From IMG/VR virus record IMGVR_UViG_3300044858_003749: a DNA stretch of 64,000 nucleotides; one strand, 5' to 3'. The DNA is from a virus. Lineage: Duplodnaviria; Heunggongvirae; Uroviricota; Caudoviricetes. Below are positions 41,537-62,236 of the stretch, in pieces. Made by a program: the position numbers and the translations under genes. Under the pieces are notes generated by a model that saw only the letters and a list, made by a program, of their open reading frames with translations, had not been told where the DNA came from and searched no databases. Within the stretch, counting starts at the first letter, position 1; every line of letters begins with the position of its first letter.

Positions 41537-41802
41537 TGAAAAAACTTTCTCTTAAAGAAACTCACACTCTTTTGAAGAAATACAATCATGTTATTTTTGA
41601 CGAAGAAACCTCTGGGTTAAATTCAAAACTTAATGACGATGGGTTAATTATTACGTTAAAAAGTGGTAACAATAAGAGTGTTATGTTGTTTCCCCATGAA
41701 AAAAATGAGTCTGTTGAGATCACTAAAACCACAGTAACTCTTTATGATAGTATGGGTTGGGTTCATAATTTCATCCCCCTTATGAATGCCGACTTGATTT
41801 GA
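41536..41802 (+). CDS. hypothetical protein
   Basis: ATG overlapping the deaminase stop (track ORF 41440..41802). Confidence 0.35.
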   Translation: MKKLSLKETHTLLKKYNHVIFDEETSGLNSKLNDDGLIITLKSGNNKSVMLFPHEKNESVEITKTTVTLYDSMGWVHNFIPLMNADLI

Positions 41803-41808
41803 ATTATT

Positions 41809-42135
41809 ATGAGTAATTATGAGCTAGCGAGGAGACGTAACACTCCACCAGAAGCATTATCACGTCTGGCTAATGATAAGGATTCTTATGTTCGTCGTGG
41901 GGTTGCATGGAATCCCAAGACCCCTCTAGAAACCTTAGATCGTCTGGCTAATGATAAGGATTCTTGGGTTCGTGGTGAGGTTGCATTTAATCCCAACACA
42001 CCACCAGAAGTTTTAGAACGTCTGGCTAATGACGAGTATCGGTATGTTCGTCGTTTGGTTGCCAAAAATCCCAACACGCCACAATACATTAGAACATATC
42101 TTAAAATTACCGAGGTTTTGAATTATTATGAGTAA
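41809..42135 (+). CDS. LRV/HEAT-like repeat protein (member J)
   Basis: Starts 'MSNYELARRRNTPPE'. 3 repeats plus cap. Confidence 0.7.
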   Translation: MSNYELARRRNTPPEALSRLANDKDSYVRRGVAWNPKTPLETLDRLANDKDSWVRGEVAFNPNTPPEVLERLANDEYRYVRRLVAKNPNTPQYIRTYLKITEVLNYYE

Positions 42136-42454
42136 TTATGAGCTAGCAGATAATCCCAACACCCCACCAGAAACATTAGAAAGTCTAGCGAATGACGATA
42201 ATTGGTATGTTCGTAGCTGTGTGGCATTTAATCCCAACACACCACCAGAAGCTTTAGAACGTCTGGCTGATGATGAGGATTTAAATGTTCGTTATTATGT
42301 TGCAAGAAATCCCAACACATTACCAGAAACCTTAGCTCGTCTGGCTAAGGATGAGGATTGTCGTGTTCGTCGTTGGGTTGCAAGAAATCCTAACACACCA
42401 CAATACATCAAAGATTATCTTAAAATCAAGGGGTTTTTGGGTTGTTATGAGTAA
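42128..42454 (+). CDS. LRV/HEAT-like repeat protein (member K)
   Basis: Overlaps the 'YYE*' of member J. 3 repeats. Confidence 0.7.
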   Translation: MSNYELADNPNTPPETLESLANDDNWYVRSCVAFNPNTPPEALERLADDEDLNVRYYVARNPNTLPETLARLAKDEDCRVRRWVARNPNTPQYIKDYLKIKGFLGCYE

Positions 42455-42626
42455 TATTGAACTAGCAGGAAATCCCAACACACCACCAGAAACCTTAGAT
42501 CTTCTGGCTAATGATAATATTTGGAATGTTCGTTATTTGGTTGCAAAAAATCCCAACACTCCACAATACATTAGAACATACCTTAAACTTCAAAGGACGA
42601 TTGGTGGACTGTCCACAAGAAGTTGA
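42447..42626 (+). CDS. LRV/HEAT-like repeat protein (member L, single repeat, 59 aa)
   Basis: Starts 'MSNIELAGNPNTPPETLD'. ATG at 42447 (track ORF 42351..42626). Confidence 0.55.
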   Translation: MSNIELAGNPNTPPETLDLLANDNIWNVRYLVAKNPNTPQYIRTYLKLQRTIGGLSTRS

Positions 42627-42651
42627 CAAACCAGGGATCTTGTGGTACTAT
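42623..42651 (+). promoter_or_regulatory. consensus sigma70-like promoter TTGACA-17nt-TACTAT (TGTGG upstream of -10)
   Basis: TTGACA at 42623-28, a 17-nt spacer, then TACTAT at 42646-51. Confidence 0.45.
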
Positions 42652-42699
42652 TATTGAGTAGTGGGGAGTTACTCTTTTTATGATAACTTGAGATTTATG

Positions 42700-42790
42700 T
42701 TATGGGCTCTGCCCCGGCAGTGGCCTTCTAAGCCATTCCATTAAACGCCGGAAGGACGGTACGATGTTCGATTCATCCAGAGCCTGCTAA
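42700..42790 (+). ncRNA. candidate structured small RNA (tRNA-like 3' half with a T-arm-like GTTCGATTC)
   Basis: GGCTCTG (42705-11) pairs with CAGAGCC (42778-84). An internal T-arm-like hairpin 'GATG-TTCGATT-CATC' and the pairs CCGGC/GCCGG and CCTTC/GAAGG are present. No ORF, and it lies about 50 nt downstream of the promoter. Confidence 0.3.
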
Positions 42791-43153
42791 ATGAAATAAC
42801 TTATAGTTATTTACTAATCACACCTCATTGGAGATATGATGCTCGGTTATTTAAAAAATGAGTTGAAGGCCAATCCTTAAACTGTCACACTAGACTTTGT
42901 TACAGCTAGACTTCGTGTTATGCTTTACTTGCGAAACAATTCAACCCACCATTAATAAAAAATGATTGTTCGTTTTCTTGGAATTACAGTTGGTATTTCT
43001 ATCATTCTGTTTATTCTTTTTCTGAGAGGACTTCCGGTTCTTATTCTGTTGAAAGCAGTTCCTCTCATTGTCCTACTCCTGATTGGAGCTGCTTTCATCT
43101 ATGCCGGAGTTACCTCCGATTAATCCTGTTCTTTATTCTTTTTTAAAAACATT

Positions 43154-43963
43154 ATGTCTCTCGTAAAAGTTGGTATTGGTGCTGGAGCACTTCTTGGAGT
43201 TATTCTGCTTACTGCTGGACAATTCACAACTATTAACACTGGTGAAAATGGATTATACATCGGATTTGATGGCCAGGTAAAAAATGAGATCCTTACTCCT
43301 GGTATCAAATATGATGGTCTAGGATCTATTAAAGTCTTCAACACCCGTAAGATTACTGTTACAGCAAATGATCTTCGTCCTAAAACAAAGGACAATACGA
43401 TTATGAAGGAGATGGATGTGACTGTAACTTACAGTATCAATCCTACTTCTCTGTATGAGTTCTATACGAATTATGATCTTACTAATCACGCAATTGGTGA
43501 TGGTGGACAAGTTCAATTGATGTCTAGTTATATCTCTCGTCTGATTACATCCTCTGTTAATCAGTCGGTTGACGAGTTTCCTGCTCTTGCAGTAAATTCA
43601 AACTTGGAACAAATCCAAGACACTATTAAGAATAATCTTTCAGGTGCACTCAAGAAGAACGGTCTGGAAGGTAAGATTACTATTGATTCAATTATCGTAG
43701 GTAAAGCCGACCTTCCCGATGACCTTGTTGCTTCTGTGAATCGTGTGGTTGCCGCCCAGTCTGCTAACAAAGAGCAACAAGTAAGGACTGAAACTGCTCA
43801 GTTGAAAGCGGAGGAAAACAAAGCTCTAGCATCTACAGTATCGTCACAATCACTTGAGTACCAAAGGAACGAAATTCTTCGTGCCGCGATGGAGAACGGA
43901 AGCATCCAGAAAATGCTTATTGTGAATGGTACGCCTCTTCAGTTCTTCCCAACTGACAAATAA
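43154..43963 (+). CDS. SPFH/Band-7 (prohibitin/HflC-like) membrane protein
   Basis: N-terminal TM segment, then 'TINTGENGLYIGFDGQV...YDGLGSIKVFNTRKITV', typical of the SPFH fold. Confidence 0.6.
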   Translation: MSLVKVGIGAGALLGVILLTAGQFTTINTGENGLYIGFDGQVKNEILTPGIKYDGLGSIKVFNTRKITVTANDLRPKTKDNTIMKEMDVTVTYSINPTSLYEFYTNYDLTNHAIGDGGQVQLMSSYISRLITSSVNQSVDEFPALAVNSNLEQIQDTIKNNLSGALKKNGLEGKITIDSIIVGKADLPDDLVASVNRVVAAQSANKEQQVRTETAQLKAEENKALASTVSSQSLEYQRNEILRAAMENGSIQKMLIVNGTPLQFFPTDK

Positions 43964-44421: not shown

Positions 44422-44821
44422 AAATAAATTTTGGGACCTTGAATCTAATCTAAATGAGATTGAATCCAATTATTTGGATCTTGAAGAGCAGTTAGCACAT
44501 TTTGTTACAGATTCGCTTCTACTTATTGAAAACTTAGATCTTGAATCTTTGGCAATACCAATATTCGCTCAGAGTCTTATTATTCGTAATTACCGAGATT
44601 ACAAATATCAAGATTTATTAAAAAAATTACTGGTATCTAAAAATTTCACACCAGGCCTAATATACCGCACAAGAGAAATTTTTACAGAAAAAGAGTTTGA
44701 ACCTTTTTTACAATACTTACTACAAAATCCAAATTTAGACCAGTATGCAAGAGAATACTACACCAACCTAAAAAAATCTTATGACCGAAGACTTACTAGG
44801 GAACAAACTAAAAAAGCTTGA
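44402..44821 (+). CDS. hypothetical protein
   Basis: 139-aa ORF. Confidence 0.35.
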   Translation: METHEIENKFWDLESNLNEIESNYLDLEEQLAHFVTDSLLLIENLDLESLAIPIFAQSLIIRNYRDYKYQDLLKKLLVSKNFTPGLIYRTREIFTEKEFEPFLQYLLQNPNLDQYAREYYTNLKKSYDRRLTREQTKKA

Positions 44822-45551
44822 GCAACTGGAGGCTGGGCGTTATGCCGATCCTTTTCTTCCACTCATGGCCAGAATTGATGGTAAGTGCTTCAGTAATTTC
44901 ACTAGAAGTCTAAAACGTCCTTATGACGAGAGATTTATTCGGCTTATGATAGCAACGACAAAATATCTTGTTGAAGAAAGTGAGGCTATTTTAGGTTATT
45001 GCCAATCTGATGAAATTACTCTTTATTGGTACTTAGATAAAGAAAACTTTTCCAATAGAGAATTCTGGTTTCGTGGTAAGTTTCAGAAATTAACTTCTGT
45101 CTTAGCCTCAACTGCTAGCTCTTATTTTTGTGGTAATCTCGCACATTATTTACCAGAAAAGACTGGTAACTATCCAACCTTTGATACAAGAGTTTGGAGT
45201 GTTCCCGATTTGGAATGCGTTTATGAGAATTTTCTATGGCGGTTTAAGGATGCGAGAAAAAATTCTGTATCCATGTATGCAAGACATTTCTTTTCACCAA
45301 ACCAGCTTTTTAAAAAGTCCTGTGAAGAAATGAAAGAAATGTTAGCGGTTATTCGTAGGCCGTGGGAAGAATTACCTAAATTCTTTACCGATGGGACGTA
45401 TATTAAAAGACAAAAATTCTTATTGTCTCCTTATGATCCTAGATGGAATGACGTTCCCTCTCAATACCGGCCAACAAAACCTGTTGAGCGTACATTGGTT
45501 TCCGTTTGGGAACCAGAGACAACGGTATCACTTGATTGGTTCACTTATTAA
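44781..45551 (+). CDS. Thg1-like tRNA(His) guanylyltransferase / 3'-5' nucleotidyltransferase
   Basis: Motif 'LMARIDGKCFSNFT...KRPYDERF...YCQSDEITLYW' matches the Thg1 pattern (vRiDG.nF, kP.DeR, sDEis). Confidence 0.65.
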   Translation: MTEDLLGNKLKKLEQLEAGRYADPFLPLMARIDGKCFSNFTRSLKRPYDERFIRLMIATTKYLVEESEAILGYCQSDEITLYWYLDKENFSNREFWFRGKFQKLTSVLASTASSYFCGNLAHYLPEKTGNYPTFDTRVWSVPDLECVYENFLWRFKDARKNSVSMYARHFFSPNQLFKKSCEEMKEMLAVIRRPWEELPKFFTDGTYIKRQKFLLSPYDPRWNDVPSQYRPTKPVERTLVSVWEPETTVSLDWFTY

Positions 45552-46131: not shown

Positions 46132-46749
46132 ATGAATTACACCGAAGAACAAGTTAAAGAAATCGTCAGAAATGTCATTTCTGAGATGCAATCTGTAAAT
46201 GTTAAGGATCTTACACTTTACCAAAAAAGGGGTGTTGCAAGAAATCCCAATACAGCACCAGAAGTCTTAGACCGTCTGGCTAATGATAAGGATTCTTATG
46301 TTCGTTGGCAGGTTGCAGAAAATCCCAACACACCACCAGAGACCTTAGAACGTCTGGCTAATGATGACGATTATTGTGTTCGTTGGAGTGTTGCATTTAA
46401 TCCCAACACACCACCAGAAACATTAGCTCGTCTAGCTAATGATGTGGATTATTGTGTTCGTACGCCGGTTGCATTTAATCCCAACACACCACCAGAAGTT
46501 TTAGAACGTCTGGCTAATGATAACGATTCTGTGGTTCGTTATTATGTTGCAAGAAATCCCAACACATTAACAGAAACTTTAGAACGTTTGGCTAATGATA
46601 AGAGTTCTTCTGTTCGTGAATGTGTTGTACAAAATCCTAACTACAAACGGAAATCCAACAATAAGATCACTATTGAGCTTACAGAAGAACAGTTGTCTCA
46701 ATTACGAAAATGTGCAGACATGTTCTCTGGTCTTTTAGGATCTGTATAA
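46132..46749 (+). CDS. LRV/HEAT-like repeat protein (member M, 5 repeats, distinct N- and C-termini)
   Basis: Repeats 'NPNTPPETLERLANDDDYCVRWSVAF'. The C-terminus 'NPNYKRK...' is shared with member N. Confidence 0.7.
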   Translation: MNYTEEQVKEIVRNVISEMQSVNVKDLTLYQKRGVARNPNTAPEVLDRLANDKDSYVRWQVAENPNTPPETLERLANDDDYCVRWSVAFNPNTPPETLARLANDVDYCVRTPVAFNPNTPPEVLERLANDNDSVVRYYVARNPNTLTETLERLANDKSSSVRECVVQNPNYKRKSNNKITIELTEEQLSQLRKCADMFSGLLGSV

Positions 46750-47202: not shown

Positions 47203-48666
47203 ATGACTTTTATGCAAGCTCTTTCTTCTGAAATGAACGTAACCACCACCGCTAATGGTGCCAAGGCTTACGAATCAACCGAAAATGAATGTCTTGATCT
47301 TTTCGGTTCAATTGGTGCCTGTCGCAATAATATGTCTTTGGCTGAACGGTTGTTCTTTAATGCTTATAACCAACACCCAGAAACTGCCGCTAGAATTCTC
47401 TTCTACTCCCGCGATATTCGTGGAGCTAGTCAAGGTGAGCGAGCCGTATTTCGGGCTCTTATGCCGAAGTTCGCACAAAAGAATCCGACTGTTGCAAAAA
47501 AACTTGTTTCTTTGATTCCTTATTATGGCCGATGGGATGATCTTCTATGTCTAGAAGGAACTCCTGTTTGGACAGAGGCTCTAGAAACTATTAAAGTTCA
47601 ACTTAATGCAGATCTTAATAACAATAAGGTTTCTCTGGCAGCAAAATGGATGCCTAGTATCAATGCTTCAAGCAAAGAAAGCAAGCGTCTTGGTCGGATG
47701 ATTGCGAATCATATGGGTTGGTCTGAACGACAGTATCGTAAGAATCTTTCTACTCTTCGGGCGAAAATTAACATTGTTGAAACTCCGATGTGTGCCAAAG
47801 AGTGGGGACTTATCAATTATGAGAATCTTCCTTCTCGTGCGGCGATGATGTACCGCAAAGCCTTTAAAAAGCACGATGAGACCCGATATAATAACTATCT
47901 CTCTAGTGTAGAGAAAGGTGAAGCGAAGATCAATGCTGGGACTCTGTTTCCTTATGATATTGTGAGCAAGTACCTCTACAAAGGTGCTCATAATGATAAA
48001 ACTCTTGAGCTTCAATGGGATGCTCTTCCTAATTATATGGAAGGACTAGAGTTTAATGGTCTTGTTGTTGCAGACGTTTCAGGATCAATGACTTGCGCTG
48101 CTGGTATGCCATTGGCCGTTTCTATCTCACTTGCGATGTATATTGCCGAAAGAAATCCTTCAAGCGTTTGGAAAAATAAGTTCATCACTTTTTCTCAAAA
48201 TCCAAAACTTCAATCTATTCTTGGTAATAATATTGAAGAGAAAATTAGGTATCTCCAACGTGCTGAATGGGGAGTTAATACTGATCTAATGGCAGTATTC
48301 CGTACTGTTCTTGATGCTGCAACCAATAATAATGTTGCACAATCAGATATGCCCCAGAAGCTAATTATCGTTTCCGATATGCAATTTGATAAGGCTTGTG
48401 CCTCAAATAAGCGAACTAATTTTGAGCAGATTCAGAAACTTTATCGTAAGGCTGGTTATGAAATGCCAGAACTCGTATTCTGGAATGTAAATGCTGGTGC
48501 AAATGTTCCAATTCAGGCCGATGATAATGGAACCTGTCTTGTTTCGGGATGTAGTCCTGCTATTCTAAAGAGTGTTCTTAGTGGTAAAATCGTTTCTCCT
48601 ATTGATGTTATGATGGAAAGTCTTTATGTGGAACGATACGCTCCTATTGGTGAAGCGTTTGCATAA
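47203..48666 (+). CDS. von Willebrand factor A (vWA) domain protein, DUF2828-like
   Basis: MIDAS motif 'LVVADVSGSM'. The N-terminal 'TTANGAKAYESTENECLDLFGSIGACR' block resembles phage/eukaryotic vWA-containing DUF2828 proteins. Confidence 0.55.
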   Translation: MTFMQALSSEMNVTTTANGAKAYESTENECLDLFGSIGACRNNMSLAERLFFNAYNQHPETAARILFYSRDIRGASQGERAVFRALMPKFAQKNPTVAKKLVSLIPYYGRWDDLLCLEGTPVWTEALETIKVQLNADLNNNKVSLAAKWMPSINASSKESKRLGRMIANHMGWSERQYRKNLSTLRAKINIVETPMCAKEWGLINYENLPSRAAMMYRKAFKKHDETRYNNYLSSVEKGEAKINAGTLFPYDIVSKYLYKGAHNDKTLELQWDALPNYMEGLEFNGLVVADVSGSMTCAAGMPLAVSISLAMYIAERNPSSVWKNKFITFSQNPKLQSILGNNIEEKIRYLQRAEWGVNTDLMAVFRTVLDAATNNNVAQSDMPQKLIIVSDMQFDKACASNKRTNFEQIQKLYRKAGYEMPELVFWNVNAGANVPIQADDNGTCLVSGCSPAILKSVLSGKIVSPIDVMMESLYVERYAPIGEAFA

Positions 48667-48734
48667 TTAAATTTCTTAAGATGGTTCAGCAATTCTCATA
48701 TGTTTTGGGTACATAAAAGACCATCTTGTTTAAA

Positions 48735-48848
48735 GAGCGAGTAGCTCAGGGGTAGAGCAACGTAATAACAAATCTCGTTTGAGATTTTAACAGCAATCAA
48801 AACCGCATGTTAAGCCGTAGGCCCCAGGTTCAAATCCTGGCTCGCTCA
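48735..48848 (+). tRNA. tRNA-like gene with ~40-nt insertion in the anticodon region (class II-like; anticodon unresolved)
   Basis: Acceptor GAGCGAG/CTCGCTC, D-arm GCTC-AGGGGTA-GAGC, T-arm CCAGG-TTCAAAT-CCTGG. It is 114 nt long. A stem AACGT/ATGTT flanks a 43-nt loop plus insertion. A possible short variable hairpin is GCC-GTA-GGC. Confidence 0.45.
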
Positions 48849-48958
48849 TCAGATGATTCAGCAATTATCTCTTCGCTAGGAAAACAAAATCATCTAGTTA
48901 AACAATTTTATCAATTCTCAAAAAATGTTCAATTTCGTTATTAATACTAAATAACCAA

Positions 48959-49032
48959 CAGCGGGCGAGTGTAACGGTAGTCACGTCGGGCTCATAACCC
49001 GGAGGAATATGGGTTCAATTCCCAGGTCCGCC
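48959..49032 (+). tRNA. tRNA-Met (CAT), initiator-like
   Basis: Anticodon loop CTCATAA. Three consecutive G:C pairs close the anticodon stem (GGG/CCC). There is a 1:72 A·C mismatch. The T-loop is TTCAATT. Confidence 0.6.
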
Positions 49033-49098
49033 ATCAGATGATTCAGCAATTTCAAAACTTCTTATTGGTTAGAAAAACAAAAATCATCTAGTCTTATT

Positions 49099-51320: not shown

Positions 51321-51838
51321 CTGAACAAGAGCAAAAACTATTAAACAAGTTTCTTTCCTCTATTGAAGAAGACGAAAAGTTCTTCAAAGAGATTATGAAC
51401 CGAACAGATGAAGACGCAAGACTTCTTCAATGGATTGTCAATAATAATATCAATCCTTACGGTGTTTTTCCTTATTATATTGCTGGCAGTCTTTCCGAAT
51501 TACAATCCTTTGTTGCCATCTACATTAAGATGACGTATCAAAGAAAGCACTGTGAAATTAATTACGTCAACGTTGAAAGAACAAGTAGCTCACATGATCA
51601 TGTTGATAACCTAGGACCGAGAGTAGTTTTTGTTGGTAAATGGGAAGATGATTTTCATGCGCTAGTTAAAAAAGAATTAAATCTACCCGACGATGAGCTA
51701 CCATGGGAATCATACACTTATGACTTTGACATCTTAGAAAACGTAGACGCCTTTATTGAAACATACAATAGGGTTGAAGATTATCACAAGAATCGTTATG
51801 AAGAAAACAGTAAGCTTGCGGATAGGTGGTTATCATGA
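51317..51838 (+). CDS. hypothetical protein
   Basis: 173-aa ORF. Confidence 0.35.
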
Positions 51839-53313
51839 ATGAAGAAACATCACAATTTTTATCAGCCAGGTTGGATAAGATTTCAGAACTACAGAAAATA
51901 GGGCAAGTTGCATATGCTAATTCTTTTCACCCTACAATTAAAGCATTAGAATTACATAAGAATTATTTTAATCTGGAAAATGGTTCTGAATGTGATGATA
52001 ATGTTGTTATAGCTGGTCGTATTATCGCAAGAAGAGTATTCGGTAAGTTGTCATTTTTTACTCTTTCCGATGACAGTGGAACAATTCAGCTTTATATTGA
52101 GAACGCCATCGTTGGTTCCGATATTGTTTCCTTAACCGATGTCGGCGACTGGATCGGCGCCACCGGCACCCTGCGGCGCACCGACCGGGGCGAGCTTTCG
52201 GTCAAGGTGCGCGACTGGACGATGCTCAGCAAGTCGCTTCAGCCCCTGCCCGACAAGTGGCATGGCCTGGCGGACGTGGAGAAGCGCTACCGGCAGCGCT
52301 ATCTCGATCTGATCGTCTCCCCCCACACCCGCGAAACTTTCCGGCGACGTGCCATTTTGATTAGAACTATTCGCAATTGGCTTGACTCGCGGGAATTTTT
52401 GGAGATTGAAACTCCTATTCTACAAACCGAAGTTGGCGGAGCCGAGGCCAAACCTTTCTCAACATATCATAACACTCTAGATCTATCATTAACTCTAAGA
52501 ATTGCGACCGAGTTGCACCTTAAGAGGATGATTGTTGGTGGTTTTGAAAGAGTTTATGAGTTGGGTCGTATATTTCGTAATGAAGGTCTAAGCACCCGCC
52601 ATAATCCAGAGTTTACAACCGTTGAGATTTATCAGGCATATGCAGATTATAATGATATGATGATTTTAACAGAAAATCTCATATCTACTTGCGCAGAGAC
52701 AGTTTGTGGTTCTACTGTAATAGTTTATCAAGATGAAAAAATTGATCTAACTCCTCCTTGGAATAAATGTACAATGCACGAATTGGTTTTTGAGCATACT
52801 GGTCTTGATTTTCATCAATTTTCGTCAAGAACCGATGCCGCTAATGCTATGGAAACTATTGGATTGGTTGTTCCTGATAGTGCCGATTCCGTTGGTCGGT
52901 TATTAAACGAAGCCTTTGAACAAAGAGTTGAAAAACAGCTCATTCAACCGACTTTTGTTTTAGATTATCCTGTTGAAATTTCTCCACTGGCCCGTTCTCA
53001 TAGAGAAAAACCGGAATTGGTTGAAAGATTTGAATTATTCATCTTTGGTCGTGAAATTGCCAATGCCTTTAGCGAACTCACCGATCCTTTAGAACAGAGA
53101 AAAAGATTAGAAGAACAACAAACCCGCCGCAATAATGGCGATCAAGAGGCTCACACTATTGATGAAGACTTTTTAAACGCACTTGAAATTGGAATGCCGC
53201 CAACCGGAGGACTAGGTATTGGTATAGACAGATTGACAATGTTACTTACGGATAGTCCGTCTATTCGTGATGTTATCGCTTTTCCTTTAATGCGCCCAGA
53301 GGACAAAACATGA
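51826..53313 (+). CDS. lysS: lysyl-tRNA synthetase (class II)
   Basis: Class II motifs '[23 protein letters not shown]' and '[15 protein letters not shown]'. N-terminal OB anticodon-binding region. Contains the GC-rich patch at 52136-52353. Confidence 0.85.
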
Positions 53314-57501: not shown

Positions 57502-57524
57502 AATTCAACGATAGACGTTGAATT
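57502..57524 (+). promoter_or_regulatory. perfect 9-bp hairpin upstream of nadV
   Basis: AATTCAACG, loop ATAGA, CGTTGAATT. It lies 30 nt upstream of the nadV RBS. Confidence 0.3.
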
Positions 57525-57553
57525 TTATCCACTATCATTTTAAGGAGTTTAAA

Positions 57554-59869
57554 ATGGACAACATTATTCTTTCTGCTGATTCTTACAAATACTCTCAGTT
57601 CAATCAATATCCTCCACAAACAGAGGGTGTTTATTCTTACATTGAGAGTCGCGGTGGTGGAGAAGAAGTTCTCTTTATGGGTCTTCAGATCTATCTTAAG
57701 GAATATCTATCTCGTCCCATTCGCATGGAAGATATTGACGAAGCAGAGGAACTTATTCTCGCTCACGGAGAACCTTTTTATCGTGGCGGGTGGGAATACA
57801 TCGTTAAGAAGCATGGTGGTTATCTACCCGTAAGAGTAAAAGCCGTTCCAGAAGGAATGGTGATTCCAACGAAAAATGTTTTGGTTACGATTGAGAATAC
57901 AGATCCAAACTGCTATTGGCTGACAAGTTTTCTAGAGACAAGTCTTCTTCGGCATGTTTGGTTTCCAACAACGGTTGCGACGAATTCTTATAACATCAAG
58001 AAGCTTATTTTGAGTTACTTGATTCGTAATGGAGATCCCAATACGATTGATTATAAGCTACATGACTTTGCATTTCGAGGTGTGTCTTCTTCTGAATCTG
58101 CCGGAATCGGTGGTATTGCACACCTTGTTAATTTCAAGGGAACTGATACAGTTGCCGCTCTTCGTTATGGTAGAAAATATTATAACGAAAAAATGGCAGG
58201 CTACTCGGTCCCAGCTTCAGAACATGGTGGAATCACGAGTTGGGGTAAAGAAAACGAAGTAGCGGCATATAGAAATATGCTTAATCATTATGCTAAGCCT
58301 GGTGCTATCGTCGCTTGTGTAAGTGACAGTTATGACATTTATAACGCTTGCGATAAGCTCTGGGGTGAGGAGTTAAAGGATGAAGTTATTGCTTCTGGTG
58401 CTACTCTGACGGTCAGGCCGGATTGTTATGATGATCAAACTAAGATTTTAACTCCTAGTGGGTGGAAATTATTTTGTGAATTATCGGAAAACGATCTGGT
58501 TGCCCAGGTTAATCCCGATAAAACTTATGAATTTGTCAAACCTCTTGAAATTATTAATGAATATTATGAAGGAGAAATGTATCAAATTCGGGATTTTCAC
58601 GGAAAAATTGATCTCTTAGTCACTCCTAATCATAGATTAGTGGTTGTAGATAGAGCTGGTGAACTTATAGTAAAAGAAGCCAAAGATTATAACCCAAAAA
58701 ATTTGAATTACCGAAAACTTCGTTCGGCTAAGGCCAAAACTTTTGGGAAAAATTTAACCTGGCACGAAAGACTATTAATCGCATTACAGGCTGATGGTAC
58801 TATTAGAAAAACGACCTCCAATAAGACGAGTATTGAATTCAATTTTCAAAAAGAGCGAAAGCATAATAGATTATTAAATATTCTTAATAATTTAAATTAT
58901 GAGTATAGTGTCTTTTATAGTGAGTCTAGGGAGGGCCAATCAATTATAACCGTGTCAATACCATTGGGTGAAATTGTTTCTAAAACATTTGATTGGGTTG
59001 ATATTTCAAACTTGGATAGTCAATGGTGTGAGCAATTTATAGATGAATTAAAACATTGGGATTCTTCTATTAGAAATAGTGGAAGATTTAAATATGATAC
59101 TACAGTTAAATTTAACATAGACGTAGTAGAATATATTGCCATTTCTTCAGGGAAAGGGATTTTAATTTCCGTCGCCGAAGATAATAGACAATCTTATTAT
59201 TCTGATGTTTATACTGCACATATATTGGATAATCCTTATTCTGGTGGTCAGACCATAACCAAAACAAAAGTTAATTATAAAGGAAGTGTACATTGTGTTA
59301 AAGTTCCGAGTGGTATGGTTTTAGTTAAAAGACACCGGGGAGTTTCTGTTTCTGGAAATTCTGGAGAACCTGTAGAAGTGAATCTTAAGTGTGCTCAAAT
59401 TCTTGAAAGTCATTATGGATCTACCGTAAACTCTAAAGGATTTAAGGTACTCAATAACGTCAAGCTCATTCAGGGTGATGGTGTTAATTATGAAACTGTA
59501 GATCGGGTTCTTCATGTACTTGAATCTAACGGATATAGTAGTGATAACATTGGTTTCGGAATGGGTGGCGCCCTGCTCCAGGCTGTTACTCGTGATGATT
59601 ACAAATTTGCCATGAAGTGTAGTGCGGTTAATGTGGCTGGAAATTGGAGGGATGTTTACAAGGATCCTATTACAGATCCAGGTAAAACATCTAAGAAAGG
59701 TCGTCTGAATCTGATTCATACCGATAATGGTTACGAAACGGTTCCTGAACGCCCATGGAATAAAGATGTTCTTGAGGTTGTTTATGAGAATGGAGAACTT
59801 CTAAAGGATTATACTTTGGAAGAAATCCGAGTGAACGCAAATCGGTGTATTCATAATTACTTCGCATAA
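57554..59869 (+). CDS. nadV: nicotinamide phosphoribosyltransferase (NadV/NAMPT) interrupted by an intein
   Basis: RBS AAGGAG. The exteins are continuous across 'ATLTVRPD | SGEPVEV', the conserved NAMPT RPDSG site. The 312-aa insert is described in the next entry. Confidence 0.8.
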   Translation: MDNIILSADSYKYSQFNQYPPQTEGVYSYIESRGGGEEVLFMGLQIYLKEYLSRPIRMEDIDEAEELILAHGEPFYRGGWEYIVKKHGGYLPVRVKAVPEGMVIPTKNVLVTIENTDPNCYWLTSFLETSLLRHVWFPTTVATNSYNIKKLILSYLIRNGDPNTIDYKLHDFAFRGVSSSESAGIGGIAHLVNFKGTDTVAALRYGRKYYNEKMAGYSVPASEHGGITSWGKENEVAAYRNMLNHYAKPGAIVACVSDSYDIYNACDKLWGEELKDEVIASGATLTVRPDCYDDQTKILTPSGWKLFCELSENDLVAQVNPDKTYEFVKPLEIINEYYEGEMYQIRDFHGKIDLLVTPNHRLVVVDRAGELIVKEAKDYNPKNLNYRKLRSAKAKTFGKNLTWHERLLIALQADGTIRKTTSNKTSIEFNFQKERKHNRLLNILNNLNYEYSVFYSESREGQSIITVSIPLGEIVSKTFDWVDISNLDSQWCEQFIDELKHWDSSIRNSGRFKYDTTVKFNIDVVEYIAISSGKGILISVAEDNRQSYYSDVYTAHILDNPYSGGQTITKTKVNYKGSVHCVKVPSGMVLVKRHRGVSVSGNSGEPVEVNLKCAQILESHYGSTVNSKGFKVLNNVKLIQGDGVNYETVDRVLHVLESNGYSSDNIGFGMGGALLQAVTRDDYKFAMKCSAVNVAGNWRDVYKDPITDPGKTSKKGRLNLIHTDNGYETVPERPWNKDVLEVVYENGELLKDYTLEEIRVNANRCIHNYFA
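58424..59359 (+). mobile_element. intein (312 aa) with LAGLIDADG-like homing endonuclease domain inside nadV
   Basis: Starts with Cys ('CYDDQTKILT') and has block B 'LVTPNH'. It ends '...SVSGN' with a +1 Ser. An internal 'LLIALQADGTI' is LAGLIDADG-like. Confidence 0.6.
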
Positions 59870-60886: not shown

Positions 60887-62236
60887 ATGTCATTGTTTCT
60901 AACAGATACTCTAACAAAAGAAAAAAGGGAATTCGTTCCACTAGAAAATAACACTGTCAACATATACTCCTGTGGTGTGACCGTTTATGATCTAACACAC
61001 TTTGGTCATGCTCGCAGTTTTATAGTTTGGGATGTTCTTCGTAGACACCTAAAATGGCTTGGATATGCTGTTAAATTTGTTCAGAACTATACCGATATTG
61101 ATGATAAAATTATTGCAAAAGCCAATGAACAGAATCAAACAATCAAAGAAATAACAGAAAAGTACATTAACGAGTATGAGAAAGATATGACCTTTCTTAA
61201 TGTTATGTTGCCGGATAAGATGCCTAGAGCCACAGATCATTTATCCGAAATTCGCAGTATGATTAAAACTCTAGAATCTAAAGGTGCTGCATATACTTTA
61301 GATGGTAGTGTTTATTTTTCTGTTAATACTCATGAGAATTATGGTAGATTATCTGGAAGAATTTTAGACAATCAAAAAGATAACTCAGGTGAATTTCTTA
61401 AAAAGAATTCTTTTGATTTCGCATTATGGAAAGCTTCTAAACCAGGTGAACCGAGTTATTCTTCTTATTGGGGAAATGGTAGACCGGGATGGCATATAGA
61501 ATGTTCGGCGATGATCTGGAAGGAATTTGGAAAGACTATTGATATCCATCTTGGGGGTTCTGATCTGATTTTTCCACATCATGAGAATGAAATAGCCCAA
61601 ACTGAAGTTGCAACAGAAAATCAATTATCTCGTTGGTGGTTACATTCTGGAATGGTAATGGTTGATGGTAAAAAAATGAGCAAGTCTCTAGGAAACTTTA
61701 CAACCATTCGGTCCTTACAAGAATCAGGATTTAGTCCAATGGCCATAAGGCTTTTCGTATTACAGGGGCATTATCGCAAACCTCTTGATTTTACGGAAAA
61801 TGCTTTAAAAATGGCAACGAATTCCTGGAATAAATTAAATGAAGTTTTGTTGTTAAAATCTTCAAAAGAAACTACCGAAATTGATTTTGATGATAAGCTA
61901 AGATCTTATCACAATAATTTTATAGATGCTCTTAACGACGATCTCAATACTTCTCTTGCAATCTCAGTTCTTTTTGTTTTGGTTAAAGAAATAAGAGTGA
62001 ATAACTCAGACTCTTATATTTTACTTTTGTGCGAATTATCAGCAATTCTTGGTCTTTTTGGAGAGCAAAAGTCCAATATAAGCGAATCAGAAATTTTAGA
62101 ACAAATTGAATTAAGAAATTCAGCAAGAAAAGAAAAGAATTTTACTCTTGCGGATGAGATCAGAGAAAAATTATTAACTTCTGGTGTTAAACTTGAAGAT
62201 ACAAAAGACGGAACTAGTTTTAATTTTATTGTGTGA
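60887..62236 (+). CDS. cysS: cysteinyl-tRNA synthetase (class I)
   Basis: HIGH motif 'HFGHARSF' and KMSKS motif 'KMSKSLGN'. Zinc ligands 'CGVTVYD' and 'HIECSAM'. Confidence 0.85.
   Translation: MSLFLTDTLTKEKREFVPLENNTVNIYSCGVTVYDLTHFGHARSFIVWDVLRRHLKWLGYAVKFVQNYTDIDDKIIAKANEQNQTIKEITEKYINEYEKDMTFLNVMLPDKMPRATDHLSEIRSMIKTLESKGAAYTLDGSVYFSVNTHENYGRLSGRILDNQKDNSGEFLKKNSFDFALWKASKPGEPSYSSYWGNGRPGWHIECSAMIWKEFGKTIDIHLGGSDLIFPHHENEIAQTEVATENQLSRWWLHSGMVMVDGKKMSKSLGNFTTIRSLQESGFSPMAIRLFVLQGHYRKPLDFTENALKMATNSWNKLNEVLLLKSSKETTEIDFDDKLRSYHNNFIDALNDDLNTSLAISVLFVLVKEIRVNNSDSYILLLCELSAILGLFGEQKSNISESEILEQIELRNSARKEKNFTLADEIREKLLTSGVKLEDTKDGTSFNFIV

What the first reader, a model, noticed from the sequence alone, without database searches (positions are those of the whole stretch)
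42623..42790. Consensus promoter followed by an ORF-less, highly structured ~85-nt RNA candidate with a tRNA-like T-arm
A near-perfect sigma70 promoter (TTGACA-17-TACTAT) lies at 42623-42651. It is followed by a GC-rich island (unusual for this AT-rich genome) with long-range pairing GGCTCTG...CAGAGCC. Inside it are a T-loop-like 'GTTCGATTC' hairpin and two further 5-bp helices, and no ORF. It could be a tRNA-like regulatory RNA, a processed sRNA or a ribozyme-like element.
Basis: seen in the sequence. Interest (0 to 1): 0.6.

Follow-up and report, generated by a model that had tools for sequence, protein, structure and literature searches.

The report
Phage arginine tRNA without a cloverleaf
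The GC-rich island is a phage gene for an arginine-type transfer RNA (anticodon UCU) that lacks the usual D-arm hairpin and uses a knotted pair of helices instead; it belongs to a large family that standard tRNA finders miss.

Summary
Window 42704-42786 (+) encodes an 83-nt structured RNA behind a sigma-70-like promoter. It is not a regulatory sRNA or a ribozyme.

It has three tRNA parts:
- an 8-bp acceptor stem;
- a 4-bp T stem with the canonical UUCGAUU loop;
- a 6-bp stem with the loop CUUCUAA (anticodon UCU, Arg).

It has no D hairpin. A 5-bp helix (P2) joins the strand after the acceptor stem to a strand after the anticodon arm. Across the family a second short helix (P3) crosses P2, which makes a pseudoknot.

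I collected 83 distinct relatives, mostly from viral contigs, plus members in cultured Vibrio, Acinetobacter and Salicola phages.
- All five helices covary: 94-96% of cells are paired, against about 62% when shuffled.
- Acceptor plus T stem always totals 12 bp (7/5, 8/4 or 9/3).
- 56 of 83 encode CCA.
- 81 of 83 carry UCU or CCU.
- 55 of the 56 members near a tRNA gene lie on its strand.

ARAGORN misses nearly all of them. The Rfam tRNA model finds 1 of 17. One record annotated with tRNAscan-SE 2.0 has no tRNA at its member.

Best reading (about 0.7): a working tRNA-Arg for AGA, the commonest Arg codon in this phage. No experiment supports this yet. I found no earlier description.

The parts
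42623..42651 (+). Sigma-70-type promoter: -35 TTGACA (42623-28), 17-nt spacer, extended -10 TG (42643-44) and TACTAT (42646-51)
   Evidence: Promoter scan. The strict class (perfect -35 with TG-extended -10) has 4 sites in the window against 0.3 expected. The closest relative L012 has TTGACA at the aligned position, followed 17 nt later by TATGAT preceded by TGT. Both hexamers are unchanged in the 93%-identical strain L190. Transcription itself was not tested.
42652..42703 (+). Predicted 5' leader, about 45 nt from the inferred start site, to be removed at G42704 (RNase P inferred)
   Evidence: Inferred from the promoter position and the family's 5' boundary. The leader is poorly conserved and longer in L012.
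42704..42786 (+). The complete non-canonical tRNA-Arg(UCU)-like gene: 82 nt plus discriminator G42786, followed by CUA, so CCA is not encoded here
   Evidence: The only hit of family model R1 in the window, 87.9 bits, E = 2e-25. No ARAGORN call and no Rfam hit even at E <= 10. No substitutions in strain L190.
42704..42711 (+). Acceptor stem, 5' strand (GGGCUCUG); pairs with 42778-42785
   Evidence: 8 pairs, all with double changes across the family, 97.6% of cells paired. Recovered by RNAalifold on an alignment not fitted to the structure.
42714..42718 (+). P2, 5' strand (CCGGC); pairs with 42747-42751. It sits where a D arm would be and runs straight into the anticodon stem
   Evidence: SCTP-2 has CCAAC/GUUGG. 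96.7% of cells paired. In an alignment-free anchor test, 67 of 81 sequences have 5 of 5 pairs; the mean is 4.53 against 3.07 +/- 0.09 with permuted partners.
42719..42737 (+). Anticodon arm: stem AGUGGC/GCCAUU and the 7-nt loop CUUCUAA (42725-31). The anticodon UCU is at 42727-29
   Evidence: The stem covaries. Loop frame across the family: C32 in 82/83, U33 in 83/83, A37 in 83/83, A38 in 82/83. Anticodons: UCU 77, CCU 4, UGU 1, GUA 1.
42738..42742 (+). P3, 5' strand (CCAUU). C42738-C42739 pair with G42759-G42758. Possible extension: A.C mismatch, then U:A and U:G with 42755-57
   Evidence: P3 was found as unmodelled covariation (column pair 44:73, mutual information 1.06). At least 16 different complementary triplets occur in the family. 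79% of cells are paired on an alignment not fitted to P3. In the window itself only the CC/GG pairs are secure.
42743..42746 (+). A-rich connector (AAAC) between P3 5' and P2 3'
   Evidence: A-rich and 3-15 nt long throughout the family. Its role in groove packing is inferred.
42747..42751 (+). P2, 3' strand (GCCGG)
   Evidence: As for the P2 5' strand.
42752..42759 (+). D-loop-like segment AAGGA (42752-56) followed by the P3 3' strand (C-GG, 42757-59)
   Evidence: The GGA motif is present in 80 of 83 members. Its equivalence to G18, G19 and A20 (A20 is the main ArgRS determinant; PMC9976931) is inferred, not tested.
42763..42777 (+). T arm: 4-bp stem GAUG/CAUC and loop UUCGAUU
   Evidence: The loop is invariant apart from one divergent member (L171, UGCGACU). 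G53:C61 is 83/83. The stem is 98.5% paired.
42778..42786 (+). Acceptor stem, 3' strand (CAGAGCCU) and discriminator G
   Evidence: Discriminator counts in the family: U 30, G 26, A 23, C 4.
42794..42812 (+). AT-rich hairpin AAAUAACU-UAU-AGUUAUUU just 3' of the gene; a possible 3'-end or termination signal
   Evidence: Folds. In strain L190 only the loop changes (42802-04, TAT to ATA) and the stem is kept. L012 has a GC-rich terminator-like hairpin (GGAGGC-GAAA-GCCUCC followed by UUUUCUU) downstream of its copy. Function not tested.

Best explanation
Window 42704-42786 is a phage gene for a working elongator tRNA-Arg(UCU) with a re-threaded core.

Architecture:
- The acceptor stem (8 bp) and T arm (4 bp, canonical T loop) form the usual 12-bp branch.
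- The anticodon arm carries the standard tRNA-Arg(UCU) loop.
- The D hairpin is absent.
- The strand leaving the acceptor stem forms the 5' half of helix P2 and continues directly into the anticodon stem.
- The 3' half of P2 comes after the anticodon arm. A GGA-containing, D-loop-like segment follows it and leads into the T arm.
- In most family members, the nucleotides just after the anticodon stem pair with those just after GGA (helix P3). P2 and P3 therefore form an H-type pseudoknot, which would take the place of the D-stem and variable-loop core.

Shown here: the gene, its boundaries, five covarying helices, the invariant loop features, the 12-bp rule, the Arg-only anticodons of the main clade, the location in tRNA arrays, and purifying selection between strains.

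Inferred, not shown:
- transcription from the upstream promoter with a leader of about 45 nt;
- 5' cleavage by RNase P;
- 3' trimming and CCA addition (this copy does not encode CCA);
- an L-shaped fold in which the GG contacts the T loop;
- charging by the host ArgRS through C35, U36 and the A of GGA;
- delivery by EF-Tu;
- decoding of AGA, the most used Arg codon of this 36%-GC phage.
For: Architecture and covariation:
- The pairwise alignment with Salicola phage SCTP-2 shows compensatory changes in four helices.
- On the 84-sequence alignment made with the covariance model, 96.0% of cells are paired, against 63.5% when shuffled and 38-45% when the partner is slid. Double changes occur in 21 of 23 pairs.
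- P2 is confirmed without an alignment.
- P3 was discovered from mutual information and then confirmed.

tRNA hallmarks:
- Acceptor plus T stem is 12 bp in all parsed members, as 7/5, 8/4 or 9/3.
- The T loop is UUCGAUU and G53:C61 is invariant. The anticodon-loop frame is invariant. CCA is encoded in 56 of 83. The discriminator is A, G or U in 79 of 83.
- This matches the bacterial Arg identity set: A/G/U73, A20, C35, U/G36 (PMC9976931).

Isoacceptor logic:
- A scan that did not specify the anticodon returned 30 distinct members, all UCU (26) or CCU (4).
- UCU and CCU copies sit side by side in L009 and L255.
- Rare variants with other anticodons occur in arrays where ARAGORN calls no matching canonical isoacceptor. 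L015 has no canonical tRNA-Tyr and its variant is GUA. L086 has no canonical Arg-ACG and its variant is ACG.

Genomic context:
- 56 of 113 copies lie within 500 nt of a canonical tRNA gene, and 55 of those are on the same strand. 34 lie within 100 nt.
- AGA makes up 42.9% of Arg codons in the window. The window has no canonical tRNA-Arg.

Selection: there are 0 substitutions across 113 nt in a strain with 6.5% divergence in the flanks.
Against: - There is no expression, processing, charging or decoding data for any member.
- Folding energy is not significantly better than for shuffled sequence.
- The collection scans used UCU- or GGAAGGA-containing patterns, so the anticodon census is biased towards the main clade.
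- The complementarity test with canonical tRNA-Arg(UCU) is only suggestive: 0 of 9 against 9 of 40, p = 0.18. L110 carries both forms.
- In the window's own subgroup, P3 may extend into the GA of GGA. That would conflict with those bases acting as G19 and A20.
- The window copy lacks an encoded CCA, and its P3 has only two secure pairs.
- No 3D model was possible, so the L shape is an argument from topology.
Confidence: 0.7

Rival explanations
1. It is a tRNA mimic that is not used in translation. It could be a decoy or sponge for a tRNA-binding factor, such as an anticodon nuclease, ArgRS, a modification enzyme or a phage protein. It would copy the acceptor/T branch and the tRNA-Arg anticodon loop.
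For: - The core is non-canonical and fails every tRNA detector.
- Non-decoding tRNA-like RNAs exist in phages: the T5 record lists 'tRNA-like stable RNAs with unknown functions'.
- Mukai et al. found 8/4 tRNAs that are charged but not used in translation (PMC5389517).
- L110 keeps a canonical tRNA-Arg(UCU) next to its rewired copy.
- The window's phage encodes several tRNA-handling proteins, including a Thg1-like protein and two aaRSs.
Against: - A decoy has no need for the 12-bp branch rule across 7/5, 8/4 and 9/3 variants, an encoded CCA, or freely varying acceptor sequences.
- It would not need paired UCU and CCU isoacceptors.
- Variants would not be expected to supply an anticodon that the array's canonical tRNA calls lack.
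Confidence: 0.17
2. It is a regulatory small RNA or a ribozyme-like element. The tRNA-like features would be incidental.
For: It has its own promoter and sits in an intergenic position. It has no Rfam family.
Against: - The conserved single-stranded positions are exactly those of a tRNA T loop and anticodon loop.
- Helix sequences vary freely, so there is no conserved antisense seed.
- Copies sit inside tRNA operons on the same strand.
- There is no conserved candidate catalytic core beyond the tRNA motifs.
Confidence: 0.03
3. It is a decaying tRNA pseudogene, or the tRNA-derived part of a phage attachment site (tRNA-Arg genes are known phage integration targets; my own knowledge).
For: The sequence resembles tRNA-Arg(UCU) from the anticodon loop onwards, and detectors reject it.
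Against: - Full-length covariation, including the 5' acceptor strand and P2, across 83 distinct sequences.
- Strict conservation between strains while the flanks diverge.
- Absence from 5,426 complete E. coli genomes, and rarity in 185,579 species genomes (12 members, 10 of them on metagenome-assembled contigs).
Confidence: 0.02
4. It is a conventional tRNA gene interrupted by an intron or permuted, and becomes a normal cloverleaf after processing.
For: Intron-containing and odd tRNA genes exist in these phages. There is a tRNA-like gene with a 53-nt insertion at 48735-48848, and there are group I introns in L122.
Against: - The gene is only 82 nt long, and its termini already form the acceptor stem.
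- Only 7 nt lie between the acceptor and anticodon stems.
- No excision would create a D hairpin.
- The 'extra' segments (P2 3' strand, GGA, P3) are the most constrained parts.
Confidence: 0.02

Closest known systems
Canonical bacterial and phage tRNA-Arg(UCU), such as E. coli argU or the T4 tRNA-Arg (recalled from knowledge; Arg identity set from PMC9976931)
   Same: It has the same anticodon loop, CUUCUAA, the same T loop, and a 12-bp acceptor/T branch. The discriminator is A, G or U. A GGA motif resembles G18-G19-A20. CCA is often encoded. Copies sit in phage tRNA arrays.
   Different: There is no D hairpin, and the order of strands in the core is changed. The D-stem-like helix P2 is closed around the anticodon arm, and a pseudoknot helix P3 is present. 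The acceptor/T split is 8/4 rather than 7/5. It is not detected by the Rfam tRNA model or by ARAGORN, and it is not annotated in a record whose tRNAs were called with tRNAscan-SE 2.0.
Allo-tRNAs and other (8/4) and (9/3) tRNAs of bacteria and phages (Mukai et al. 2017, PMC5389517)
   Same: The 12-bp branch is divided 8/4 or 9/3. They occur in phages, and conventional searches miss them.
   Different: Allo-tRNAs are cloverleaves with a long tRNA-Sec-like D stem with a tetraloop and a long variable arm. They mostly have Ser identity and diverse anticodons. The present family has no D stem-loop, a pseudoknotted core, and Arg anticodons.
D-arm-lacking mitochondrial tRNAs, such as metazoan or nematode mt-tRNA-Ser(UCU) (PMC7609411)
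   Same: There is no D hairpin, and the acceptor stem connects almost directly to the anticodon stem.
   Different: The mitochondrial forms are truncated and flexible. They have a short unpaired replacement loop and often reduced T arms, and they work with specialised organellar machinery. This family is full length (about 80-90 nt), keeps a perfect T arm, adds two compensating helices, and must work with bacterial machinery.
Aminoacylatable tRNA mimics with pseudoknots: the tmRNA tRNA-like domain and plant-virus 3' tRNA-like structures
   Same: They combine tRNA-like acceptor and T parts with non-cloverleaf connectivity and pseudoknots.
   Different: Those mimics lack a decoding anticodon arm with this function, are parts of much larger RNAs, and have other identities (Ala, Val, His, Tyr). 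ARAGORN and Rfam report no tmRNA at this locus.
'tRNA-like stable RNAs' of phage T5 and bacterial or phage Y RNA-like (YrlA) tRNA mimics
   Same: They are phage-encoded small stable RNAs, located in or near tRNA clusters, that resemble tRNAs.
   Different: The family model finds no member in the T5 tRNA region. Rfam gave no match to the candidate at E <= 10. Those RNAs do not carry a conserved anticodon loop with CCA in this arrangement (recalled from knowledge).

Membership tests
tRNA (canonical cloverleaf; Rfam RF00005) | Acceptor stem plus T stem form a 12-bp coaxial branch | tested here: met
   8 + 4 bp in the window. The family shows 7/5, 8/4 or 9/3, always 12.
tRNA (canonical cloverleaf; Rfam RF00005) | T loop with the UUCRANY consensus, closed by G53:C61 | tested here: met
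   UUCGAUU at 42767-73. The loop is invariant in 82 of 83 members, and G:C is 83/83.
tRNA (canonical cloverleaf; Rfam RF00005) | 7-nt anticodon loop with U33 and a purine at 37, on a 5-bp stem | tested here: met
   CUUCUAA. U33 and A37 are 83/83. The stem covaries.
tRNA (canonical cloverleaf; Rfam RF00005) | D arm: a local hairpin (positions 10-25) between the acceptor and anticodon stems | tested here: not met
   Only 7 nt (CCCCGGC) separate the two stems. Five of them pair with a strand that lies 3' of the anticodon arm.
tRNA (canonical cloverleaf; Rfam RF00005) | Recognised by the family's covariance model or by standard detectors | tested here: not met
   No RF00005 hit even at E <= 10. 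ARAGORN is negative. 1 of 17 members reaches the Rfam threshold. No tRNA is annotated at the member in a record whose tRNAs were called with tRNAscan-SE 2.0 and ARAGORN.
tRNA (canonical cloverleaf; Rfam RF00005) | Discriminator followed by 3' CCA (encoded or added) | tested here: inconclusive
   CCA is encoded in 56 of 83 members. The window has G-CUA, so CCA would have to be added after transcription.
tRNA (functional definition) | Aminoacylated, bound by EF-Tu, and decodes on the ribosome | not testable with these tools
   Only indirect evidence: identity elements, the 12-bp rule, array context, and isoacceptor complementarity.
tRNA-Arg identity (bacterial) | C35, U/G36, A20 in the D loop, A/G/U73 (PMC9976931) | tested here: inconclusive
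   C35 is present in 81 of 83 and U36 in 82 of 83. The discriminator is A, G or U in 79 of 83. The GGA motif is present in 80 of 83. Whether its A occupies the position-20 pocket cannot be tested.
Allo-tRNA / (8/4)-(9/3) tRNAs (PMC5389517) | 12-bp branch split 8/4 or 9/3 | tested here: met
Allo-tRNA / (8/4)-(9/3) tRNAs (PMC5389517) | tRNA-Sec-like long D stem with a tetraloop, and a long variable arm, in a cloverleaf | tested here: not met
   There is no D stem-loop. The region between the anticodon and T arms pairs back to the 5' region (P2) and to itself (P3).
D-arm-lacking mitochondrial tRNAs | Truncated tRNA with an unpaired D-replacement loop; organellar | tested here: not met
   The RNA is full length (82 nt) with two compensating helices. 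It is encoded by tailed phages.
tmRNA | tRNA-Ala-like domain plus a tag reading frame and pseudoknots | tested here: not met
   No ARAGORN or Rfam tmRNA call at the locus. The RNA is 83 nt and has no reading frame.

The most novel reading that the evidence does not exclude
The re-threaded, pseudoknotted core may be an adaptation rather than an accident. On this reading it makes the phage's AGR-decoding tRNA-Arg (and occasional Tyr and Thr versions) unrecognisable to tRNA-targeting nucleases that read the canonical D-arm/elbow geometry. Those nucleases could be host defences or the phage's own host-shutoff enzymes. RNase P, ArgRS, EF-Tu and the ribosome would still accept the tRNA. If so, bacterial translation tolerates a tRNA with no D hairpin, and phages exploit that tolerance as a counter-defence. 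The architecture would also be a natural scaffold for orthogonal tRNAs.
Probability: 0.2. Interest if true: 0.92.

Novelty: new variant of a known kind. Interest (0 to 1): 0.8.

Why it matters
Outside mitochondria, tRNAs are taken to be cloverleaves with a D arm. The reviews I could read list only variations on that plan and place D-arm loss in organelles (PMC7609411, PMC5389517).

This family keeps the acceptor, T and anticodon parts of a tRNA but replaces the D arm with a covarying pseudoknot. The family is large: at least 83 distinct sequences, and BLAST matches in 337 cultured phage records infecting Vibrio, Acinetobacter, Salicola, Escherichia and Salmonella.

If these RNAs are charged and decode, three things follow:
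- Bacterial RNase P, ArgRS, EF-Tu, modification enzymes and ribosomes accept a radically re-threaded tRNA core.
- Phage tRNA repertoires, and codon-usage or 'missing tRNA-Arg' analyses built on standard detectors, are systematically incomplete.
- A new natural scaffold becomes available for tRNA engineering.

Cultured phage-host pairs exist, so the question can be tested directly.

Tried and rejected
- Rfam at the gathering threshold and at E <= 10 gave nothing at the locus.
- ARAGORN gave nothing on the window or on 44 of 44 extracted members. Its only calls were three extracted sequences that I excluded as non-members, plus an odd 93-nt call over L003 in whole-locus mode.
- RNAfold z-scores are weak, so thermodynamics alone does not support the element.
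- The first collection pattern was too strict and found nothing.
- The short 7/5 and the 9/3 variants gave no BLAST match in cultured phages.
- Phage T5, the type species of the family that contains the Vibrio T5-like carriers, has no member in its tRNA region.
- There is no match in 5,426 complete E. coli genomes.
- I could not identify which two Escherichia phages and which Salmonella phage were among the 337 matching records. The listing is dominated by near-identical Vibrio phages.
- The alternative local hairpin GCCG-GAAGGA-CGGU in the minimum-free-energy fold is not conserved in SCTP-2 or L006, so I rejected it in favour of P2.
- RNAalifold on the plain MAFFT alignment did not recover P2, because the 3' strand is misaligned by one column in several subgroups. 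P2 was then verified with an alignment-free anchor test. My first anchor was faulty and the corrected one worked.
- The test for complementarity with canonical tRNA-Arg(UCU) was not significant (p = 0.18).
- The 487-aa DUF2828/DUF7788 protein has no sequence match to any solved structure.
- Eight literature searches found no description of this architecture. The library holds open-access papers only.
Full report
**1. The observation**

- Promoter: TTGACA at 42623-28, a 17-nt spacer with TG at 42643-44, then TACTAT at 42646-51.
- GC-rich island: a block about 52 nt downstream is 58% GC, in a window of 36.3% GC.
- Outer pairing: GGGCUCUG (42704-11) pairs with CAGAGCCU (42778-85).
- Inside are a GAUG-UUCGAUU-CAUC hairpin, a helix CCGGC/GCCGG, and a hairpin AGUGGC-CUUCUAA-GCCAUU.
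- The only ORF there is a 27-codon GTG frame.

Taken alone, none of this is statistically compelling.
- RNAfold z-scores are -1.76 and -0.8.
- Promoter matches of 10 of 12 are as common as expected: 33 observed against 25.7 +/- 5.2.
- Only the strict class (perfect -35 plus TG-extended -10) is enriched: 4 sites against 0.3 expected. Three are on the coding strand: 1272, 42623 and 47057.

**2. Standard detectors see nothing**

ARAGORN finds two tRNAs elsewhere in the window and none here. Rfam finds three tRNA-model hits elsewhere and none here. At E <= 10 on a 400-nt slice, no family matches the candidate.

**3. The first relative**

I searched window 41800-43200 against 50,697 phage records with blastn. 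It matched exactly one place. The matching stretch was the candidate itself (42710-42779). The target was an unannotated intergenic site of the 440-kb Salicola phage SCTP-2, 81% identical.

The pairwise alignment shows compensatory changes in four helices:
- acceptor: GGGCUCUG/CAGAGCCU against CUCCCGUG/CACGGGAG;
- P2: CCGGC/GCCGG against CCAAC/GUUGG;
- anticodon stem: G.U against C:G;
- T stem: U:A against G:C.

In SCTP-2 the 3' strand is followed by G-CCA.

**4. The family**

Three pattern scans of IMG/VR were anchored on the anticodon loop and T loop. One further scan used only GGAAGGA plus the T loop. One scan covered 185,579 species genomes.

I built a covariance model, R1, from 27 sequences.
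- It scores the window copy at 87.9 bits, and that is its only significant hit in the window.
- It separates members (30.6-90 bits) from ordinary tRNAs (at most 33 bits, mostly below 28).
- The final alignment, A5, holds 84 members, 83 of them distinct.

Members are rare in cellular genomes: 12 in 596 Gb. Ten of these are on metagenome-assembled contigs, several of which carry tRNA arrays. There are none in 5,426 complete E. coli genomes.

One member sequence matches 337 cultured phage records by BLAST:

| Organism name | Records |
|---|---|
| Vibrio | 301 |
| Acinetobacter | 32 |
| Escherichia | 2 |
| Salmonella | 1 |
| Salicola | 1 |

In the records listed, the site is annotated as nothing or as 'hypothetical protein'.
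- I confirmed three of these phages as members with the model: ME3, fHyAci03 and 70E35.6.
- In Acinetobacter phage ME3 the element lies just upstream of an annotated tRNA-Met.
- In phage fHyAci03 the tRNAs were annotated with tRNAscan-SE 2.0 and ARAGORN. An 85-bit member sits unannotated between tRNA-Thr and tRNA-Ser.
- The Rfam tRNA model reaches its threshold on 1 of 17 members tested.

**5. Structure**

On A5, 96.0% of cells in the four modelled helices form standard pairs. The shuffled control gives 63.5%, and sliding the partner gives 38-45%. Twenty-one of 23 pairs show changes on both sides (the 49-sequence version is). This alignment is fitted to the model, so I added independent checks.
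- RNAalifold on the plain MAFFT alignment recovers the 8-bp acceptor stem, the anticodon stem and the 4-bp T stem.
- In an alignment-free anchor test of P2, 67 of 81 sequences have 5 of 5 pairs. The mean is 4.53 against 3.07 +/- 0.09 for permuted partners, with more than 25 different complementary 5-mers.

A mutual-information scan over all column pairs ranked the modelled pairs first. It then flagged an unmodelled pair, 44:73. Following that lead revealed a fifth helix, P3.
- P3 is 3-5 bp long. It joins the nucleotides immediately 3' of the anticodon stem to those just after a conserved GGA.
- At least 16 different complementary triplets occur.
- It is 79% paired, with double changes in all three pairs, on an alignment that was not fitted to it.

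P3 crosses P2, so the core is an H-type pseudoknot. The order of parts is:

acceptor 5' strand, 1-3-nt linker, P2 5' strand, anticodon arm, P3 5' strand, A-rich connector, P2 3' strand, A-N-G-G-A, P3 3' strand, 2-3 nt, T arm, acceptor 3' strand.

In the window, P3 is weak. C42738-C42739 pair with G42759-G42758. A possible extension runs through an A.C mismatch. A short 7/5 subfamily (73-76 nt) mostly lacks P3.

**6. Why I read it as a tRNA**

- *Branch length.* Acceptor plus T stem totals 12 bp in every parsed member, whether split 7/5, 8/4 or 9/3. This is the length that EF-Tu recognises (PMC5389517).
- *Loops.* The T loop is UUCGAUU and G53:C61 is invariant. The anticodon-loop frame is C32, U33, A37, A38 in 82-83 of 83 members.
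- *3' end.* CCA is encoded in 56 of 83 members. The discriminator is A, G or U in 79 of 83.
- *Anticodons.* Counts are UCU 77, CCU 4, UGU 1 and GUA 1. One further, lower-scoring copy carries ACG.
- *Unbiased check.* In the scan that did not specify the anticodon, all 30 distinct members were UCU or CCU.
- *Arg identity.* Bacterial arginine identity is A20, C35, U/G36 and A/G/U73 (PMC9976931). The family keeps C35 and U36, and a GGA motif in 80 of 83. The motif lies where a D-loop G18-G19-A20 would lie if the P2 3' strand is equivalent to D-stem positions 10-13. That equivalence is my inference.
- *Array context.* 56 of 113 copies lie within 500 nt of a canonical tRNA gene, and 55 of those 56 are on the same strand. 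34 lie within 100 nt.
- *Filling gaps in arrays.* Large arrays carry a rewired UCU copy where ARAGORN calls no canonical tRNA-Arg(UCU): L131 (27 tRNAs), L162 (18), L122 (14) and L011 (10). L015 (23 tRNAs) has no canonical Arg-UCU or Tyr call and carries rewired UCU and GUA copies. L086 has canonical UCU, CCU and CCG but no ACG, and its rewired copy is ACG. Across all loci this complementarity is only a trend: 0 of 9 against 9 of 40, p = 0.18. L110 is an exception.
- *Codon use.* AGA is 42.9% of Arg codons in the window, and the window has no other tRNA-Arg.

**7. Selection and expression signals at this locus**

Near-identical copies of the region occur in five metagenomic samples. One copy, L190, is 93.4% identical over 690 nt and has 45 differences.
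- None of the differences falls between 42689 and 42801. About 5.5 would be expected within the 85-nt gene.
- Both promoter hexamers are intact.
- The only changes in the AT-rich hairpin 3' of the gene (42794-42812) are in its loop.

The closest distinct relative, L012, has the following:
- TTGACA at the aligned position;
- a TG-extended TATGAT 17 nt downstream of it;
- a GC-rich terminator-like hairpin after its copy;
- a position just downstream of three canonical tRNA genes.

Transcription, processing and charging remain untested.

**8. Topology argument (inference)**

In a canonical tRNA the chain enters the D stem through its 5' strand (10-13). It makes the D loop, returns through 22-25 and continues into the anticodon stem. 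The variable loop then packs against the D stem on its way to the T stem.

Here the chain enters through the strand that continues into the anticodon stem, which is equivalent to 22-25. The partner strand (equivalent to 10-13) and the D-loop-like AxGGA come after the anticodon arm. P3 clamps the post-anticodon segment to the pre-T segment, where the variable loop and D loop normally touch.

Every new connection joins points that are neighbours in the canonical L shape. A tRNA-like fold is therefore plausible, but I could not model it. One caveat: in the window's subgroup, P3 may extend into the GA of GGA. That would compete with those bases acting as G19 and A20.

**9. Comparison with known classes**

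- (8/4) and (9/3) tRNAs are known in bacteria and phages, but they are cloverleaves with long D stems and variable arms (PMC5389517).
- The review of non-canonical tRNAs describes D-arm loss only for mitochondrial tRNAs, which are truncated (PMC7609411).
- tmRNA, viral tRNA-like structures, Y-RNA-like mimics and the T5 'tRNA-like stable RNAs' share the idea of tRNA mimicry but not this architecture.
- Eight full-text searches found no description of a tRNA with this core. The library is open-access only, so an earlier description elsewhere cannot be excluded.

**10. Verdict**

- The feature is real (confidence about 0.97).
- It belongs to a phage-borne family of tRNA-Arg-like genes with a non-cloverleaf, pseudoknotted core (about 0.95).
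- It works as a charged, decoding tRNA-Arg for AGA (about 0.7).
- The main rival is a non-translating mimic or decoy (about 0.17).
- I class it as a new variant of a known kind, with high interest.

Noticed in passing
window 48735-48848 (+): A second odd tRNA-like gene. The Rfam tRNA model scores it at 50.7 bits, with normal acceptor, D and T arms. About 53 nt are inserted where the anticodon arm should be, including the hairpin AAAUCUC-GUUU-GAGAUUU. ARAGORN misses it. Folding z-score is -4.7. It has relatives in Synechococcus phages B3 and B23 and Aeromonas phage Ahp1 (annotated 'tRNA-OTHER' there), and in a 735-kb uncultured phage record that has no annotation.
   Followed up: partly
window 47203-48666 (+): A 487-aa DUF2828/DUF7788 protein (PHROG 850, 'RNA-binding protein', E = 1e-145) lies directly upstream of that odd tRNA-like gene. 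The arrangement recalls the Ro/Rsr protein with its Y-RNA partner. The protein has no sequence match to any solved structure.
   Followed up: partly
window 44781-45551, 51826-53313, 60887-62236 (+): The phage encodes a Thg1-like tRNA 3'-5' polymerase 2 kb downstream of the rewired tRNA. It also encodes a class II aminoacyl-tRNA synthetase of the Asp/Lys/Asn type and a cysteinyl-tRNA synthetase. This is an unusually rich set of tRNA-related genes.
   Followed up: no
window 41809-42626 and 46132-46749 (+): Three tandem small paralogous genes encode leucine-rich-repeat-variant (LRV/HEAT-like) proteins immediately upstream of the promoter. A fourth, larger one lies 3.5 kb downstream.
   Followed up: no
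window ~48681-48730, 48849-48900, 49034-49090 (+): A repeated motif (UCAGAUGAUUCAGCAAUU ... AUCAUCUAG, an inverted repeat of AGAUGAU) follows the tRNA-like gene at 48735 and the tRNA-Met at 48960. A similar copy precedes the first gene. These may be processing or termination signals.
   Followed up: no
window 57518-59869 (+): A nicotinamide phosphoribosyltransferase gene appears to be interrupted by a segment of about 320 aa that matches ribonucleotide-reductase and PhoH-type PHROG families. It may be an intein or an inserted domain.
   Followed up: no
window 1272 and 47057 (+), 31436 (-): Three more sites have the strict promoter form TTGACA-17-TGnTAnnnT, against 0.3 expected by chance for the whole window. 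This suggests that the phage relies on strong host sigma-70 promoters.
   Followed up: partly
L015 9010-9092 (-), L171 1606-1691 (-), L086 4896-4971 (-): Copies of the same rewired architecture carry other anticodons. One has GUA (Tyr, discriminator A). One has UGU (Thr, with the divergent T loop UGCGACU). One has ACG (Arg, 7/5 form). The architecture is therefore not strictly limited to AGR-decoding tRNA-Arg.
   Followed up: partly
L122 438-804, 4731-5338: In one viral contig, the tRNA array that holds a rewired tRNA-Arg is flanked by a GOLLD RNA (217.6 bits) and two group I introns.
   Followed up: no
L186 (phage T5, NC_005859 30284-33949): The T5 record annotates several 'tRNA-like stable RNAs with unknown functions' (RNA1, RNA2, RNA3) inside its tRNA cluster. 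None belongs to the present family.
   Followed up: partly
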